Positions 3,141 to 51,620 of a stretch of DNA of 64,000 nucleotides are shown in pieces. A model generated the notes under the pieces. It saw only the letters and a program-made list of their open reading frames with translations. It ran no database searches and had not been told where the DNA came from. The stretch is from Vicugna vicugna (Eukaryota). Where the stretch lies: the NCBI GenBank assembly GCA_013265495.1, contig MU057801.1, positions 1,357,879 to 1,421,878 of the forward strand. The letters run 5' to 3'. The translations under genes were made by a program, and so were the position numbers. Positions within the stretch are counted from its first letter, which is position 1, and every line of letters begins with the position of its first letter.

Positions 3141-3499
3141 CTGGAAAACGCAACGGGTCAATGGACTTTGGGGGTCTGATTCTAAAGCTCTTCACAGGTG
3201 CGCTTTAATCTTGAGACTGTAGATGCTCAGTAAAGACGGCTTGGCTAAACAAACTGCACCACGTAAATACACTAGTGTCTGAAAACAAAGCACAGATGAA
3301 CAACATTCTTGTGTGGCTTGTGATCTCAACCAAGTGAACGTAAATTACGTGTAGAAGAAAGGAGCATTAATGACAAAATATTAGCTTTGGTTGATAGTTT
3401 TGGTAGGAGTAGAGTTCATTTTTCCTTTTGGACAAAAAATATAACATATATGTTGTTTATTCAACAAAACAAACTTTACTTAAAAATATTAGATGTTGA

Positions 3500-3680
3500 G
3501 GGAGGGTGTAGCTCAGTGGTGGAGCGCACGTTTGATGCAAGAGGTCCTGGGTCAATCCCCAGTGCCTCCAATAATGCATGCATGCATTAATAAATAAATA
3601 AAGCTAATTATCTCCCCTCATCAAAAAAAAGAATAAAAAAATAAAATAGTTGGACAAAAAAAGAGAAGAGTTTATTTTAA
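3500..3680 (+). mobile_element. vic-1-type tRNA-Ala-derived camelid SINE
   Basis: Head gggagggtgtagctcagtggtggagcg (A box), ggtcaatccccag (degenerate B box), aataaa/ctaattatctcccc tail, A-rich end; TSD aaaatattagatgt (3483-3496) / gaaatgttagatgt (3681-3694). Confidence 0.9.
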
Positions 3681-3725
3681 GAAATGTTAGATGTGCACTA
3701 AGAGAATTTAGTGCCCACATAAAGT

Positions 3726-7270: not shown

Positions 7271-7554
7271 CAGCCTCTGGAGCTGAGACAGAGACTGTGG
7301 TGGTGGTGGGGGGGTGGACAGTAGGATCAGCCTCATTCCCACAGGTGGGATTTGCTGGGTTCCGGCTGCTTTTAAAGGTCTGGGAGGAGGCTGGAGCTGT
7401 GTGTCATCCCAACGGAACCGATTCACACTTCGAATTCGGATGGCATGAGAAGTACGAGTAAAAGTACCTTTAGTGGTTGGCTACGACTCCTGCTTACTCT
7501 TTAAGACATTTATGTTCAATAGTGGTAAAATCCACTTAATATAAAATTCTCCAT

Positions 7555-8131
7555 TGAGGCGGGAAGCCCTATAAAAAGACCAGCAGGACCCCAAGCAGGG
7601 CCACTACTCTCGCGCCGGCACCATCCGGTTCCCTGGCCCAGAGGCTCTTATCTCACTTTTTGCCTCTGAAAGGGCTAACTTACCCCTAAAATTCTATTGG
7701 TTCCCTGAGCTCACTTCTGATTGGTTATTTCCTTCACTCCTGATTGGTTATTACTCTCACTTCTGATTGGTCCACTTCCCTAACTTCTGATTGGTCCATT
7801 TGTAGTACTTCATTTGCATGGAGCTCACTCCTGATTGCTTACTTCTCTCACTCCTGATTGGTCTATTTCTACAAAGCTTGTTCCTGGTTGGTCCACTTCT
7901 GTTATACTTTATTTGCATATGATGTTGCAAACTATAAAACTGGCAGCCTATAAAGGCCTGTGTAAACCTACAGACAGAGTCCAGAGCTTCGAGTGTTAGT
8001 TTTTGTGGGCCTGCTGCCATGATAAACCTGAGTTCTCCAACTCTTCGAGTGCTGCGTGTTCTCTCTCCTGGATCCAGGTTGCTGTCATGTGTGAACTATA
8101 ACACCTAGCTGTAACACATTTTTCCACAACA
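7555..8131 (+). mobile_element. ERV1-class solo LTR (577 bp) with tandem CCAAT-box array
   Basis: TG...CA termini; 4-bp TSD ccat (7551-7554) / ctat (8132-8135); ~23-bp internal repeats; TATA-like tataaaa 7933-7939; degenerate polyA signal gataaa at 8021. Confidence 0.85.
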
Positions 8132-8454
8132 CTATCTTAACATTTTTAATTGCACAGTTCAGTGAACTAAGTAGATTAACACTTGTGCACCCACCTCCCC
8201 CATCCATCTCCAGACCTTTTCCATCATTCTCAAGTGAAACTCTGTCCTCATTAAAAAATCACCCCCCATTCCTCCCTCCCCCAGGCCCTGGCAACCGCCA
8301 TTCTAATTTTTATCTCTGTGAGTTTGACCGTCCTAGGTACTTTACGTACCTGGAATCATACAGTGTTTGTCTTTTTGTGCCTGGCTTATTTTGCTCAGCG
8401 TAATACCCTCAGGGCCACCTCTGTTGTAGCATGCATCAGAACTAACTTCCTTTT

Positions 8455-8578
8455 TGGGGATGGGGAGCCGTCATTAGGTTGATTGATTAAGTAATTAATT
8501 TAATGGAGGCACTGCGGATTGAACCCAGCACCTCGTGGATGCTAAGCATACACTCTCCCACTGAGCTACACCCTTCCC
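8455..8578 (-). mobile_element. vic-1-type SINE
   Basis: aatggaggcactgcggattgaacccagcacctcgtggatgctaagcatacactctcccactgagctacacccttccc is the reverse complement of the tRNA-derived head. Confidence 0.9.
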
Positions 8579-8586
8579 TCCCTTGC

Positions 8587-8862
8587 CCAGTTTTGGTATC
8601 AGAGTAATCTTGGCCTCATACTGAGTTGCACAGTGTATGCCTTCAGTTTTCTGGAAGAGTCTGTGTAGAATTTCTATTACGTCTTCCTTAAATATTTGAC
8701 AGAATTCACCAGTGAAGCCATCTGGACCTGATGCTTTTCGGGGAGGTTTTACCTGATTCAGTTTTTTGGATAAATGCTGAGCTATTCAGATGATTTATTT
8801 TTGAACGAGCTTTTGCAGTTTGTATCTTTCACATATTTCGTTCATTTCATCTAAGTTGTCCG
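8587..8862 (-). mobile_element. Old L1 ORF2-region fragment between two vic-1 copies
   Basis: ttttggtatcagagtaatcttggcctcata...tttgacagaattcaccagtgaagccatctggacctg; from the L1 ORF2 interior, not colinear with the flanking L1MB 3'UTR. Confidence 0.8.
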
Positions 8863-8986
8863 ATTTTTTTTTTAGAGGGGGAGGTAACTAGGTTTATTTA
8901 TTTATTTTTTAATGGAGGTACTGGGGATGGAACCCAGGACCTCGTGCAGGCTAAGCAGGCGCTCCACCCCTGAGCTGTGCCCTCCC
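8863..8986 (-). mobile_element. vic-1-type SINE
   Basis: ggggaggtaactaggtttatttattt...aatggaggtactggggatggaacccaggacctcgtgcaggctaagcaggcgctccacccctgagctgtgccctccc. Confidence 0.92.
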
Positions 8987-11859
8987 TTCCTCTCTCCTTT
9001 TAAGGCTGAAAAATATTCCTGTTTACTCTTCAGGCTACCGTTTGGGGTCTTATGAGGTCTTCGAAATTCATGGTTGTGCTGGGAACCCAACCCAAGGAGA
9101 ATCCATGGGAAATCTCATGTTGTGGGGGTCCAGACCTTCCATACGGCAGCATCGTGCTCTGCCTGGACCTTCATGGCTCTTCTTTGCATCTGTGCCTCCT
9201 GGGTCCCCAAGGGAGACCAGGAGTCCTCTCTCCAGTCACCTGTGAAGGGCGTGGTGGGCTGAGAGGTGCCTTCACACGTCCTCTGAGTCTTCCCAGAAAC
9301 CAAACACATACGGTTTCTCTGTAATTATGTTCTGCATCATTTTTAGGTGGTGGTAGTGGTGGGGCTTGTTACAGCAGAGAGGTTCCCAAATAGGTGAAAG
9401 GGACAATCATAAAGGAACATGTCTGTTATGAAGTGGAGATTCCTTTTCTTTTTTAAATGTAGAGATTGAATACTTTTTTTTTTTTTGTTAATTCACATAC
9501 ACCTCTTTGGATAAGCAAGCCCCTCAGATGGAACGGCCCTCCTGTGGCAAATTCTAGTCCTGTAAACGGTTTAAAAAAAATAAGAGTATTTTTGTCGCCT
9601 CCTTCTCCTCCCACGAAGCTAAAACAGTTGATTTCTCCCGCTCTCACCTGCAGTGTGAACGTTGAATTAAACACTTACGGCGTTAACAATTAATGTGAGA
9701 GAAAAAACACCCAGCGAGGGCGATGAGCCGCCTCTAAACCCGGTGGAACTGAATGCAAATAAAAGGGGTTCAACAGTGTCATCTTCCTGCCCCGGACTCC
9801 TGGGAGGTTTTCCTTGAACTGGTTCACGTAGTCAGAAGCCTTACATTCTTTTCTGAAGGACGGTTGAGATAATTTTAATCATAATGGAGACGATATGCCG
9901 TGAAGTCTTTACAAAAAGGAACGGAGTGCGATGTGGGGGCGGGGTGGCGCCTGCATTAACGCGCACCCCTCTTGTCCTCACCGCGACGCGTGGTGACGGC
10001 GGAAAGTGACGCCAGGCTGCGCGAGGAGCCAGGGCTGTTCAGCGTGTTAACATCTCCATTATGTCTAGAAGCAGAAAATGGAACAGATAAAGCAGGTTGG
10101 GTTTTCCCCGCACTGTAATGTATGACAGAGTGTCACGGGAACTCATTGTCTGCCATGAATACAAAAATACGGGCCGTTCAGGCCCGACAGTGAGAACGCC
10201 AGTGAGTCCGTGAAAGCGCCCCGCTCGCAGGAGTCTGGCTTGCTTTTACTCTTATTTATTTCCCCCCACTAAGGCGGTTCCTTGAGTTGTCTCATCTTTA
10301 AAGTTTACGTGGCGTCCAGAATTGCTTCTTTTTTCCCTTCCTGCTCTGTTTCTAAAATGCAAGAAAGGCAGGATGAAATACAATGGAACCCTCGCATTGG
10401 TTTTCCTGGCCCCTTCATTCAGGCCAAGCGCCGTCTTGTTTGAGCGAACGATGGAACCATTTTCACAGGAGGCGCAGGCAGGACGTGGCAGAGCCCCCGC
10501 GCCGTGGGCCTGCTTTCCCGGCAAAGCGCGGGCTCCGACGCCCTGGCGGAGGCGGTCCTGATGGGCCCGCCCGGGGCGCACGCGTGGTCCTGCCCGCTCC
10601 CCAGCCTGGGACCTGCCTGCTGGGCACCGGGAGCGGAGCGGACGCCGTCCTTGGAGAGAGCCCGGGTGGTCTTCTCTGTGTCCCCGGGGCTCCTGGCTTG
10701 AGAAGAAGGGATTTCGGGAGGGAGCCCTTAGGACTCAGGAGTGATTCTGACCTCGAGCTGACGTTTTCAGGGCGAACAGCCTGCGGCGGGGCTGGCACGT
10801 TGGATGTCTGGCTCTGCCTGTGGCCACAAGGGGGTGTCAGGGACCGGGCGTGAAAGGAGAGGACATCTGAATTTGGGGAAACTTGAACATGTTACTTCCT
10901 GCCCCGCTTTGGAAATGACTGCTAATTCCGTGTGGGAAAAGCCCACATGGAGCCCTCGTCTCGTCTGGTTCACTCAGCCTCGGCCCCTGGAGACAGAAGC
11001 CGGGACAAAGTAGGATGATTTGGACTTAGTACACGAGGCCACACAAAGGTCCTACCTGCCGCAAGCAATCAGAAGCTTCGGGTCGACCCGTGCTTGGGTC
11101 TGCACAAAACTGTTTTTTTCAACCTAAAAGTTACTCTTGGTGCAAACTGTATCCCTGTTTCCTTAGCCCTGTGTCCTTTTTTTTTTTTAATCATTGCTGA
11201 TCCTGCTTACTCTGGACTCACTAAACATGCAGCCTCCAGTGCTGCCCTCTGCCCTCTCTCCCTTCTCTCCGTGAACTCAGAGCTCACGGTTTTCTTCAGG
11301 CATCAAGCTCGAGGTAGCAAGAAAGACGGGCTGAACGCTGAGGGCCCAGTCAGTTCAGAAACCATCCCAGCAGGAAGAGGGCAGAGGGAGGGAGAGGCCA
11401 GAGGTCTGCAATCCAGCTGGAAGTGGGGGAGGGGTGGAGGAAAGGGGGGCACCGAGGCCGGGGATTCTCAGAAAACACGGAGGATGCTTTCCTAGAAGCC
11501 CAGCCTCGCTGAAGCTGCTCCCCTCCCAGAACCCTTCCGGCTCTCCCAGCCCCAGGGCCTGGCCCCGTCCCTCTCCCCACCCCTTCCTCCTCCACCGACA
11601 GGAACACCCTCAGCTCCCTTTCTGCCAGAGCTTGGCTTGTCCTGCCACCTGCAGCCTGGACCTGAGAACCTTCACCATTTCCCCCAAGTCTGTCTAAATC
11701 GCCATCTCCCCCAGACCCCCGTCCTTTCTCCAGGGAAAGTAAGGTCTTCCCGGCCCTGGGCTGAGCTCCCCCTCCGCAGGCGTTGGGATGTGCTGCCCGG
11801 TGGCTTTCCCTGTCTCTCCAGGCTGGCATCAATTTTCTGTCCTCAGCTTTGCATCGGCC

Positions 11860-19479: not shown

Positions 19480-20070
19480 ATTTTTTTCTCTGTTGGCTAA
19501 AACCTCTGTTATAAATGTTGAAAGGGAATAGTTATGGTGGGCATTTAGTTCTCACCCTGGGCTCCTAAGAAAAATGGTTAATATCTCACCACTAATTTTG
19601 ATGTTTTCTGAAGGGTTATAGTCGGTACCCTTTATCACATTAATAAATCACTTTATTTTACTTTGTTGATAGTGTTTATTTTAAATGATAAATGAATGTT
19701 ACACTTGATCAATTAATTTTTTGCATCTATGAAATAATCACGTGATTTTTTTTTTGGTTTATCCTCTTACTGTGATGAATTACATTGATTTTCTAACATT
19801 AAGTCAACTTTGTATTCCTGAGATAAACCAAGTTTAGTAATGCGGAATCTTCCTATTTTACATCACTGGTTCAGAGTGTTAATTTTTTTGTTTAGGATTT
19901 CTGCATCTACGTTCATATATAGTATTGATCTTAATTTTTTTCCTTCTACTATAAATTTGGGCATCTACTCTGTGTTAACCTCATAAGATGAGTGGAGTAA
20001 CATGCTCTCTTCCATGTTCCAGAAGAGATTCTAAAAGATTGGAGTTATTTCTCACTTAAGTGTTTTGTAG
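19260..20070 (-). mobile_element. Old L1 ORF2-region fragment
   Basis: gaaatgcaattgacttgtatgttgat...ctctctgcaaaataacaatagttt...ctttgtattcctgagataaacc...tttaggatttctgcatctacgttcat. Confidence 0.75.
19445..19474. repeat. (TG)n microsatellite
   Basis: Pure TG run of about 15 units. Confidence 0.95.
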
Positions 20071-20277
20071 AATGCACACGTGTGCCACCTCATTACATAA
20101 AAGGCCATCCCCCAAATCATGTTAAAATTGACAAAACTGTAATTGTGTCAAATTATAATTATGTAATTACAGAAATTTACAGTTACAAAATTATAGTCAG
20201 ATAAAAATCACGTAAGTTACAATTTCACAAAAATTACATAATAAACTACAAAGTTACATTTCAAAACCTTTGCCAAA

Positions 20278-22678: not shown

Positions 22679-23229
22679 TTTCAGGCTGAGCTGTGGTCAT
22701 TTCTAATCTCTAGCCTCCACCTCCCCACCCCAAGGCCAGGCATTCTCTCCAATCTCCTTGCACAACCTCGAACGCCCCCTCCATTTCGCAGCTCCCCCCA
22801 TCCTTCTTAAATGAAGGGATGAAGAGGAGCTCGTGGACATGCGCTCAGCCGCCGGTTCTGCTTTCTGCGCGGGGGCAGCACCGCGTGGAACCCACCGACG
22901 GGGAATCTGTGGTCCTGCCGGGGAGAATGCCTCCCACCCCCACAATGCCCCCTTCGGGCAAGGGGGTGGCGGGAGGAGGCCTCGGGCTGCCGGCCGAGCC
23001 CAGCCCTCGCTGCAGGCTCAGGTTTGTCCCCCGCCGGAACGTGCACAGGGCGCCTTAGAGAAAGAGGCGAAGGAGCCTCCTTGACTCCAGCGCCCCCGCG
23101 CCCCCTCCCCCAGGAAGCCCGGGACTCATCCCGCGATCTCTAGTGCCCTCTAGTGGCCGACATGCGTCATGTCCGGTACCCAGAGATTGATTTTTATTGT
23201 ATATAAACCTACCCGAGTGGGCCCTGAGC

Positions 23230-23503
23230 AGGGACATCACACACGCACACACACACTGTGTGGTCCCTCTTCTGGGCGGCACCGCGGGTGCTCAGAGCCC
23301 TAGCGCGTAGGAGGGTGGTTGCCAGGGGCTGAGGGCGGGAGAGACGGGGAGCTATTCTGCACTGGGTGTCAGTTCGGGAAGGAAGCGTTCTGGAGGTGAA
23401 TGGGGGTGATCGCTGCAGAACGATGTGAGTGTCCTGGGGCCCCTGACCTGGACACTTCACAGTGGTTAAGAAGGTGAATTTTATATTATGTATATTTAAC
23501 ACA
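23230..23503 (+). mobile_element. L1MB-like 3' end
   Basis: ggtggttgccaggggctgaggg...gttctggaggtgaatggggg...gtggttaagaaggtgaattttatattatgtatattt. Confidence 0.75.
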
Positions 23504-48917: not shown

Positions 48918-50530
48918 TTTTCTGAGTGTCTTTTTTAGATTCCACATGTAAGGGAGATCATACAGTGTCTGCCTTTCTCTGTCTGGCTTATTTCATTCAG
49001 CAAAATGCCCTCAAGGTCCATCCAAGTCGTTGCAGACGGGAAAGTTTCCTTCTTCCTCGTGGCGGAATAATACTCCTTTGTGTAGACTTACCACATCTCC
49101 CTCATCCGCTCACCCACTGACAGGTTGATTCCGTATCTTGACTGTTGTGAGTAATGCTGCAATGGACACGGGAGTGCAGGTATCTCTACGAAATCCTGAC
49201 TTCAGTTCTTTGAATACTTCCCCAGAAGGGGGATTTCGGGATAAACTGTGACTGTTTCCCATCGTGGCTCTCGCAGTCTGCATTTCCACCAGCAGCGCAT
49301 GAGGGCTCCCTTTCCTCCACAACCTCGCCAACACTCATTATCGGGTGTCTTTTTTGGTGACGGCCGTTCTAACAGGTGTGAGTGATGTCTCTTCGTGGTT
49401 TTGATTTGCATTTCCAGTGATGAGGGGAGTTGGGCATCTTTCTGTGTGCCTGTTGGCCCTCTGTGTATTTTCTTTGGAAAACTGTCTGTTCTGTTCCTCT
49501 GCCTGTTTTTAACTCAGGTTGTTGGTCCTTGTCATCGTTGTTAGCGAGTTGTGCCACTAACAACACAATCTTCATGTGCTTTGAATATTACCCTCGCCTC
49601 AGGTCAGCAGCTTGCGGCTGTTCCGTCCCGCTCTGCAGGCTGCCTTTTATGTTGCCGGTTGTTTGCTGTGCGGGAGCCTGTTGGTGTGATGCGGCTCCTC
49701 GCCGTGTAGTTTTGCTCTTGGGGCTTGTACGTCCATTGTCGTATCACGGAATTGCTGCTGAGACCAGAGTCAAAGCTTTCCCCCCGTGTGTTCTCCTAGG
49801 AGTTTTATGGTTTTGGGTCTTAAATTTACACCTTTAATCCATTTCAGGTTTTTTTTTTGAGTGGTGTAAGATGGGGGGCTGTCCAATTTCACTCTTCCGC
49901 ACGTGGTTTTCCAGTTTCCCACACCATTTCCCCACTGAGTGTTCTTGCCTCCAGGGCCCAATATTAGTGGACTGTATATGTAGGGGTTTATTTCTGGGCT
50001 CTCAGTTATGTTCCACTGATCTTTTTTTGTCTTTCTTTGGCCAGCACCACCCTGCTCTGATTACTGTAGCTTTGCAGTGTAGGTTGAAATCAGGGAGTGT
50101 GACGTCTCCGGCTCTGTTCCTCTTTCTCATGATCGCCTTGGCTATTCAGGGTCTTCTGTGGCTCCAGGCAAGGTTTACAAGTGTTTTTTCTGCTCCTGTG
50201 AAGAATGCCACTGGAATTTGGACAGGGATTGTATTGATTCTGTAGGCAGCTTTGTATAGATGGGTGAATATGAGCATCTTAGCACTGTTAATTCTTCTGA
50301 CCCTTAAGTGTGAACCGTCTTCTCACTCACTGGTGTCTCCCTCAGTTTCCTTCACCAAAGTCGCACAGCTGTCGGTGCACAGGCCTCCCCCCTCCGTGGG
50401 CAGAGGGACTGACTTGAAGTGTTTCATTGGCTTTGACGCTGTTGTGAATGGGATGGTTTTCTTTCTTTCTTTCTCAAATGTATTGCTGTCAGTGTATAGA
50501 AACACAATTATTTTCTGAATTATGATTTTG
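48918..50530 (-). mobile_element. L1MA-like element, ORF2 distal part plus 3'UTR, frameshifted
   Basis: Peptides MQIKTTKRHH...ECWRGCGGKG, KWIKGVNLRPKTIKLLGE and QKIIVFLYTDS...IPFTTASK are L1 ORF2p-like. Confidence 0.9.
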
Positions 50531-51104: not shown

Positions 51105-51620
51105 AGAAGCAACCCACGTGCCCATCAATGGATGATTGGGTTAAGAAAATGTGGTGTATATATACAGCAGAATATTATTCAGCCATAAAAATGAATGCAA
51201 TACCCCCACTTGCAGCAGTGTGGATGGACCCAGAGAATATTACGCTTAGTGGAATAAGTCAGAGAAAGACAAGTACTATATGATATCACTTATATGTGGA
51301 ATCTAAAAAGTAATACATATGAATGTCTGTGCAAAATGGAAACAAACTCACATAGAAAACAAAGTCGTCATTATCAAAGGGGAGAGGAAAGGGGGAGGGG
51401 CAAATTAGGAGTATGGGATTAACAGATACAAACCACTATACAGAAAAGAGATAAGTGATAAAAATTTACTGTACAGCACTGGGAAATATACCCAATACCT
51501 TGTAATAACCTATAATGGAATATAATCTGCAAAAAAACTGAATCACTGTTGTATGTACACCTGAAACTAACACAACCATACTTAAACTAAAAAAAAAAAT
51601 TTAAAGAAAGTTAAAAAAAT
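51105..51620 (+). mobile_element. Cetartiodactyl L1 3' end with poly(A)
   Basis: gaagcaacccacgtgcccatcaatggatgattggg...tgatatcacttatatgtggaatctaaaa...acacctgaaactaacaca, then A-tail. Confidence 0.92.

What the first reader, a model, noticed from the sequence alone, without database searches (positions are those of the whole stretch)
8448..9003. Composite SINE-L1-SINE cassette in a single target site: possible vic-1 read-through transduction
Seen: the host L1MB 3'UTR breaks at ...actaacttcctttt and resumes at ctcctttt|aaggctgaa. tcctttt is duplicated (8448-8454 / 8995-9001) and the right copy ends in TTTT/AA. Between the copies, on the minus strand, are vic-1 (8986->8863), about 280 bp of unrelated old L1 ORF2 sequence, and a second same-orientation vic-1 (8578->8455) ending in a short A-run. 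I find no AAAA on the + strand across 8455-8986, so the minus transcript has no TTTT. Established: TTTT/AA is the L1 endonuclease site and TTTT terminates Pol III. Inference: a Pol III transcript started in one vic-1, read through flanking genomic DNA and a second vic-1, and was retrotransposed as one ~540-nt unit, meaning this SINE can move genomic cargo. Alternatives are ectopic recombination or conversion between vic-1 copies, or two sequential insertions.
Basis: partly seen in the sequence, partly recalled or inferred. Interest (0 to 1): 0.7.

Follow-up and report, generated by a model that had tools for sequence, protein, structure and literature searches.

The report
Two-SINE insert carrying old L1 fragment
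A 540-base insert made of two short jumping repeats with a dead piece of another repeat between them landed in one step inside an older repeat; it probably came from one over-long RNA copy, a rare but already described by-product, and its source was not found.

Summary
The structure is real. On the minus strand: SINE A (~8989-8863, tRNA-like head), a decayed L1 ORF2 piece (8862-8582, ORF2p aa 424-519, E 6e-11) and SINE B (~8581-8455). They lie between two copies of a 7-bp direct repeat at an L1-endonuclease-type site, and the host L1 3'UTR is collinear across the break with two in-window paralogues. Neither SINE has its own duplication. It is not shown. The missing TTTT is weak evidence (59-76% of simulated sense-strand spacers also lack it), only 3 of the 7 duplicated bases are informative, and only one tail A lies outside the duplication. 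Ectopic recombination between SINE copies (0.25) predicts the same anatomy. No donor, sibling or empty site could be examined: no genome was held and no reads were laid. SINE 3' transduction is reported for Alu but disputed, so this is a single, old candidate of a known, rare kind. Interest is low unless siblings exist.

The parts
9002..9025 (-). 5' stub of the host L1 3'UTR (upstream flank of the insertion; the L1MB label is untested)
   Evidence: matches in-window L1 3'UTR paralogues 51161-51190 (0 of 500 shuffles) and 49089-49046 (4 of 500)
8995..9001 (-). 5' copy of the 7-bp target-site duplication; TTTT/AA nick site on + at 9001/9002
8990..8994 (-). 5 unassigned bases between the duplication and SINE A: decayed longer duplication, untemplated addition, or donor 5' flank
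   Evidence: paralogue 49089-49046 aligns through them, which favours a decayed longer duplication but does not prove it
8863..8989 (-). SINE A, full length, tRNA-derived head 8984-8913, three overlapping AATAAA, A10 tail; 8 of 93 positions differ from the majority of the other four copies
8582..8862 (-). decayed L1 ORF2 fragment (ORF2p aa about 424-519), sense to the SINEs; 2 stops, 3 gaps and an apparently out-of-frame middle; estimated 12-30% neutral decay (upper-bound method)
8455..8581 (-). SINE B, full length, more decayed (15 of 93), degenerate A-rich tail, a single A before the duplication
8448..8454 (-). 3' copy of the 7-bp target-site duplication
8120..8447 (-). remainder of the host L1 3'UTR (left end approximate)
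   Evidence: blastn matches to in-window paralogues at 49016-48957, 51229-51284 and 23308-23420; junction continuity

Best explanation
At an unknown donor locus two copies of this tRNA-derived SINE had inserted about 280 bp apart, in the same direction, into a dead L1 ORF2 (inferred). Pol III started at SINE A. The family has no terminator of its own, so Pol III read through A's tail, the T-poor L1 piece and SINE B to the next T-run beyond B (inferred). L1 ORF2p nicked the host L1 3'UTR at TTTT/AA (site shown), primed on B's A-tail, the A-tract nearest the RNA 3' end (inferred), and copied the whole 540-nt RNA, leaving one duplication around the block (shown). The result is a one-off, old SINE 3' transduction with no known function, in effect a SINE dimer with a long spacer.
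For: One outer duplication, none for A or B alone. Host 3'UTR collinear across the break. Insert begins within 5 nt of A's 5' end and ends at B's tail. All parts co-oriented; longest T-run in the 540-nt sense strand is 3 and there is no TCTTT-type terminator. An antisense spacer would almost never lack TTTT (0.003), and 9 of 84 GC-matched tiles lack it. Decay rises from A (8 of 93) to B (15 of 93) to the spacer (33 of 53 conserved in-frame ORF2p residues kept; P=0.001 if it were only 9% decayed), as expected of a younger driver carrying older passengers. T-minus SINE transcripts end at random downstream terminators and are copied efficiently only when the terminator is within about 40 bp of the A-tail, which would favour priming at B over A (PMC9599045 Introduction). 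An Alu construct lengthened by 439 bp still retrotransposed at about half efficiency (PMC3415434 passage). 14 of 24 listed runs, 7 studies, hold 0.79-0.81 of the sampled words, more than the 0.63 possible without the spacer, so the spacer sequence is not peculiar to this assembly.
Against: No donor, sibling or empty site was seen. Lack of TTTT is expected for sense L1 ORF2 (0.59-0.76). The duplication is short, with 3 informative bases, and only one tail A lies outside it, while A's internal tail keeps A10; L1 needs a tail over A20, so heavy later shrinkage must be assumed. The A-versus-B age difference is not significant (Fisher p=0.18), and the spacer cannot be separated in age from B (P=0.20 at 16%). 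A's promoter boxes today fit a recalled consensus no better than B's (2+1 versus 0+1 mismatches). Five bases before A are unexplained. A strict survey confirmed 0 Alu transductions among 118,489 AluY (10.1101/2024.04.29.591526), so the prior is low, although that survey excluded cases with another Alu or L1 inside the transduced segment, which is this architecture.
Confidence: 0.45

Rival explanations
1. DNA-level capture: one ordinary SINE first inserted here with the 7-bp duplication. Later ectopic gene conversion, a double crossover, or integration of a small excised circle using SINE homology copied 'A'-L1-B'' from a donor into it. Both SINEs are then chimeras and no long RNA was involved.
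For: Predicts exactly the same outer anatomy: one duplication, full 5' end, tail at the 3' end, same orientation (inference). SINE-SINE homologous rearrangements are common in human genomes, with a median junction homology of 15 bp (PMC9675761 passages).
Against: Gives no reason for the sense-strand, TTTT-free spacer (11-34% of tiles qualify). The passages read describe mainly deletions, duplications and inversions, and explain most insertions as ancestral alleles. B looks more decayed than A in both halves rather than in a mosaic, but with low power. No donor lies in this window.
Confidence: 0.25
2. RNA-level chimera: RNA ligation, or two template switches during L1 reverse transcription, joined SINE RNA, a piece of L1-containing RNA and another SINE RNA; no genomic donor with this arrangement exists.
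For: 113 Alu/L1 chimeric insertions under one duplication, mostly a full-length sense Alu 5' of L1, are described (10.1101/2025.02.02.635956 passages). An unchecked note from this scan reports another SINE-headed mosaic in this genome (e1-8043680).
Against: Those chimeras end in an L1 3' end and mostly pair contemporaneous elements. Here the L1 part is an internal ORF2 piece that looks older than SINE A, and two switches are needed. Both inner junctions begin with A-runs, as independent SINE insertions into L1 would, although for B this has a chance rate of 87 of 262.
Confidence: 0.1
3. Retrocopy of the 3' end of a Pol II transcript (3'UTR, lncRNA or orphan L1 transduction) polyadenylated at SINE B and 5'-truncated near SINE A.
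For: Five unassigned bases precede A. The family carries AATAAA repeats shortly before its tail.
Against: Truncation within 5 nt of A's start would be a coincidence. A holds three intact AATAAA and the spacer one, while B now has none, so a Pol II RNA should have ended earlier.
Confidence: 0.08
4. Not one insertion: sequential insertions plus SINE-SINE deletions within or between old L1s, a chance 7-mer match, or a join made by the assembly.
For: The duplication has only 3 informative bases (2.8%). The run index cannot vouch for the outer junctions, which make up only 7% of possible words, and about 20% of words are missing in all 14 good holders for an unknown reason.
Against: The ORF2 piece lies out of order, after a 3'UTR stub that continues exactly on the far side. 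Neither SINE has its own duplication. A deletion route needs several independent events at the same 3'UTR position, and a misassembly would not make a duplication at an endonuclease site.
Confidence: 0.12

Closest known systems
Alu 3' transduction (AluSx-WaluSat and 386 high-confidence Alu 3' events in 10.1101/2021.07.12.451456, passages; 0 confirmed among 118,489 AluY in 10.1101/2024.04.29.591526, whole main text; Kojima's Alu-monomer case seen only as cited there)
   Same: Pol III SINE at the 5' end, foreign genomic sequence behind it, one duplication around both, L1 endonuclease site.
   Different: tRNA-derived, non-primate SINE; the priming tail is supplied by a second SINE copy, a class the 2024 survey excluded; no source element identified here.
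Dimeric/complex SINEs (SINEBase definition, PMC3531059 passages)
   Same: Two SINE units retroposed together as one.
   Different: A 280-bp L1 fossil separates the units, and only one copy is known; SINEBase asks for at least 100 copies for a family.
Alu/LINE-1 chimeric insertions (10.1101/2025.02.02.635956 passages)
   Same: Full-length sense SINE followed by sense L1 under one duplication.
   Different: There the L1 supplies the 3' end and tail and is usually contemporaneous; here the L1 piece is internal, decayed and followed by a second SINE.
Transposable-element-mediated rearrangements (PMC9675761 passages)
   Same: Chimeric SINEs at both ends of a moved segment would look the same.
   Different: The events described are mainly deletions, duplications and inversions; an ectopic insertion into one SINE was not among the passages read.

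Membership tests
L1-mediated (TPRT) single insertion | Target-site duplication flanking the whole insert | tested here: met
   7 bp exact; short, 3 informative bases; host continuity supports the site
L1-mediated (TPRT) single insertion | Endonuclease site TTTT/AA at the nick | tested here: met
   8998-9003 on +
L1-mediated (TPRT) single insertion | Poly(A) tail directly before the 3' duplication | tested here: inconclusive
   one A outside the duplication, five including it
L1-mediated (TPRT) single insertion | Empty orthologous site | not tested
   no genome held; no reads laid; only paralogues within the window were used as a stand-in
SINE (Pol III) 3' transduction | Full-length SINE at the 5' end | tested here: met
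   tRNA model positions 1-71 at 8984-8913; start within 5 nt of the duplication
SINE (Pol III) 3' transduction | No Pol III terminator inside the unit | tested here: met
   longest T-run 3, no TCTTT; weakly informative
SINE (Pol III) 3' transduction | Source locus with the same SINE and flank, and a terminator downstream | not tested
   none in the 64-kb window; genome-wide search not possible; metagenome scan and scan index empty but these barely cover the genome
vic-1 SINE family | tRNA-derived head plus tail only (simple SINE) | tested here: met
   SINEBase lists vic-1 as a simple SINE of camels
vic-1 SINE family | Identity to the vic-1 consensus; camelid host | not testable with these tools
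Complex (dimeric) SINE family | At least 100 copies of the combined unit | not tested
   1 copy in 64 kb; no look-alike in the scan index; genome-wide count not possible
Alu/L1-type chimeric insertion | L1 3' end and tail form the 3' part of the insert | tested here: not met
   the L1 part is internal ORF2, aa 424-519, and the 3' end is SINE B

The most novel reading that the evidence does not exclude
The cassette is one member of an undescribed multi-copy composite SINE (SINE - fossil L1 ORF2 - SINE) that arose by Pol III read-through and then amplified as a unit. It would catch the birth of a complex SINE family with a traceable source locus, and show that tandem SINE pairs let Pol III elements carry genomic DNA, a route that the strict Alu survey excluded by design.
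Probability: 0.07. Interest if true: 0.5.

Novelty: new member of a known kind. Interest (0 to 1): 0.22.

Why it matters
Whether Pol III SINEs transduce flanking DNA is disputed: 386 Alu events in one preprint, none confirmed in a stricter one that left out cases with a second repeat inside. A case with a proven donor would be a clean non-primate example, and would suggest that a downstream SINE supplies the priming tail, a pattern that is easy to screen for genome-wide. As it stands this is one old insertion of dead repeat sequence with no sign of function, and its mechanism is undecided.

Tried and rejected
Whole-genome donor search: no genome is held. No reads or contigs were laid on the stretch, so junction support, empty alleles and paralogous copies of the spacer are untested. 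Local donor: the spacer has no other blastn hit in the window, and the second ORF2 fossil near 19730-20090 aligns over only about 110 nt at low identity; rejected. Independent duplications for A or B: best matches were 5-6 nt, none placed as a duplication; rejected. Stop-codon count as an age test: 2 stops in 91 codons, uninformative (P=0.24 at 9% decay). Pfam on three spacer frames: only one weak, below-cutoff unrelated hit. Metagenome scan with the spacer translation: 147 pattern matches, 0 confirmed. Scan index: nothing near, by words or by sequence. ARAGORN: 0 tRNA genes. RNA fold of the cassette: z = -2.1, 3 of 100 shuffles as good, consistent with pairing inside and between the tRNA-like heads; not taken as evidence. 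Gene context: 0 Pfam hits in 48 of 65 ORFs of at least 130 aa, so it is unknown. The third paralogue (23050-23450) did not cover the junction. Literature: no paper on vic-1 transduction or this architecture turned up in searches; the library lacks most subscription journals and PMC3242629 was not held. PMC3272025, PMC13023118, PMC8605555 and PMC4859970 were read as passages and added little.

Full report
Observation. The 7-mer at 8448-8454 recurs at 8995-9001 and the right copy ends at a TTTT/AA site. Between them lie 540 nt, all on the minus strand: SINE A, a spacer and SINE B. The window holds five copies of this SINE in all. A has a tRNA-like head at 8984-8913 (29.4 bits). The spacer matches human L1 ORF2p aa 424-519 (E 5.9e-11) and 50 ORF2-like proteins. 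Its similarity runs from about 8866 to 8582 and does not continue beyond either SINE.

Is it one insertion? The duplication alone is thin. The tail supplies its A's, and 20 of 709 AAAA ends in the window continue with the same three bases; an unanchored scan did not single it out (228 of 1000 random pieces did as well). The better evidence is the host. The 5' flank 9025-8998 matches two other L1 3'UTR copies in the window (0 and 4 of 500 shuffles). The 3' flank continues on the same copies from the abutting position (15 and 4 of 1000 shuffles in an anchored global alignment), though a free local alignment of that short flank was not significant. Neither SINE has a duplication of its own. So an ORF2 piece sits out of order inside a 3'UTR that is otherwise continuous, bounded exactly by SINEs. 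Public DNA runs hold the sequence: 14 of 24 listed runs, 7 studies, two coded organisms (13 and 1 runs), carry 0.79-0.81 of 81 sampled words, above the 0.63 possible if the spacer were missing (sampled words need not be evenly spread). That does not prove the outer junctions, which are 7% of possible words, and the roughly 20% missing in every good holder is unexplained.

The no-TTTT argument. It is true (longest T-run 3, no TCTTT) but weak. 222 of 1270 overlapping 540-nt windows lack AAAA on +. A simulated sense spacer lacks TTTT with probability 0.59-0.76, an antisense one 0.003; 9 of 84 GC-matched and 157 of 456 of all 276-nt tiles lack it. I put the likelihood ratio for a Pol III route over a DNA route at about 2-8 (inference).

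Ages. A differs from the majority of the other four copies at 8 of 93 positions and B at 15 of 93 (Fisher p=0.18). The spacer keeps 33 of 53 conserved in-frame ORF2p residues, against a median of 94% in 42 comparison segments. Simulation puts its decay at about 12-30%, rejecting 9% (P=0.001) but not 16% (P=0.20). This is an upper bound, because lineage differences count as decay. The stop count was uninformative. The spacer is thus probably dead genomic DNA older than A, which favours a genomic donor over live L1 RNA. The gradient A, then B, then spacer fits a young driver with older passengers but is not significant between A and B.

Mechanism. Best reading (0.45): Pol III read-through from A over the spacer and B at a donor, then L1 target-primed insertion using B's tail. 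For SINEs without their own terminator, transcription ends at random downstream T-runs and copying is efficient only when the terminator is within about 40 bp of a tail longer than A20 (PMC9599045 Introduction). A downstream SINE near a terminator would therefore be the natural priming point (inference). A 439-bp-longer Alu construct still jumped at about half efficiency (PMC3415434 passage). Against it: only one tail A lies outside the duplication, A's boxes are no better than B's against a recalled consensus, five 5' bases are unexplained, and no donor was seen. The main rival (0.25) is ectopic conversion, double crossover or circle integration between SINE copies, which predicts the same ends; SINE-SINE homologous rearrangement is common (PMC9675761 passages). 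RNA ligation or template switching (0.10) is documented for Alu/L1 chimeras, but those end in an L1 3' end and mostly pair contemporaries. A truncated Pol II retrocopy (0.08) must pass four AATAAA and stop by chance at A's start. Multi-step, chance or assembly explanations get 0.12. Shown: the parts, the site, host continuity, no donor in 64 kb. Inferred: the donor, the transcript and the priming.

What was not done. No genome is held and no reads were laid, so donor, siblings, empty site and junction reads are all open. A metagenome scan (147 pattern hits, 0 confirmed) and the scan's own index gave nothing and cover little of this genome. An unchecked note from this scan describes another SINE-headed mosaic under one duplication in the same genome (e1-8043680); I did not test it and it is not support.

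Known context and novelty. One preprint counts 386 high-confidence Alu 3' transductions and the AluSx-WaluSat case (10.1101/2021.07.12.451456, passages). A stricter one confirmed none among 118,489 AluY but excluded segments holding another Alu, SVA or L1 (10.1101/2024.04.29.591526, whole main text; tables are images and supplements were not seen, and they may list comparable cases). I found no paper on this SINE transducing DNA in searches, in a library lacking most subscription journals. The locus works like a SINE 3' transduction or a long-spacer SINE dimer. Membership is not established, because the defining source locus is untested, and it fails the test for an Alu/L1-type chimera. Verdict: a real, probably single, old insertion; a new candidate member of a known rare kind; interest 0.22, rising to about 0.5 if sibling copies show a family (probability 0.07).

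Noticed in passing
window 3479-3694 (+): Another copy of the same SINE has a clear 15-18-bp duplication (9 of 1000 random pieces score as well), but about 30 nt of mixed sequence ending in a T-run lie between its A-rich tail and the 3' copy: either a short read-through to a Pol III terminator or a decayed tail.
   Followed up: partly
window 23825-23640 (-): SINE copy with a second, tandem copy of the 3' end and tail; it shares A's variant of box A; no clear duplication found.
   Followed up: partly
window ~7400-8120: LTR-like element (my recall, untested) with tandem CCAAT-box-type repeats at 7711-7899, directly beside the host L1 3'UTR; a simple end-and-duplication scan found no boundaries.
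   Followed up: partly
window ~19730-20090 (-) and one site in 50000-50500 (-): Further decayed L1 ORF2 fragments; the first overlaps the spacer's ORF2 interval but is too distant to be its donor.
   Followed up: partly
window 8300-9150: All 14 good holders stop at 0.79-0.81 of the sampled words; the systematic 20% shortfall (sequence difference from the window's individual, contig breaks or filtered words) is unexplained.
   Followed up: no
window 8990-8994: Five bases between the duplication and SINE A; one paralogue aligns through them, so the true duplication may have been longer and has decayed.
   Followed up: partly
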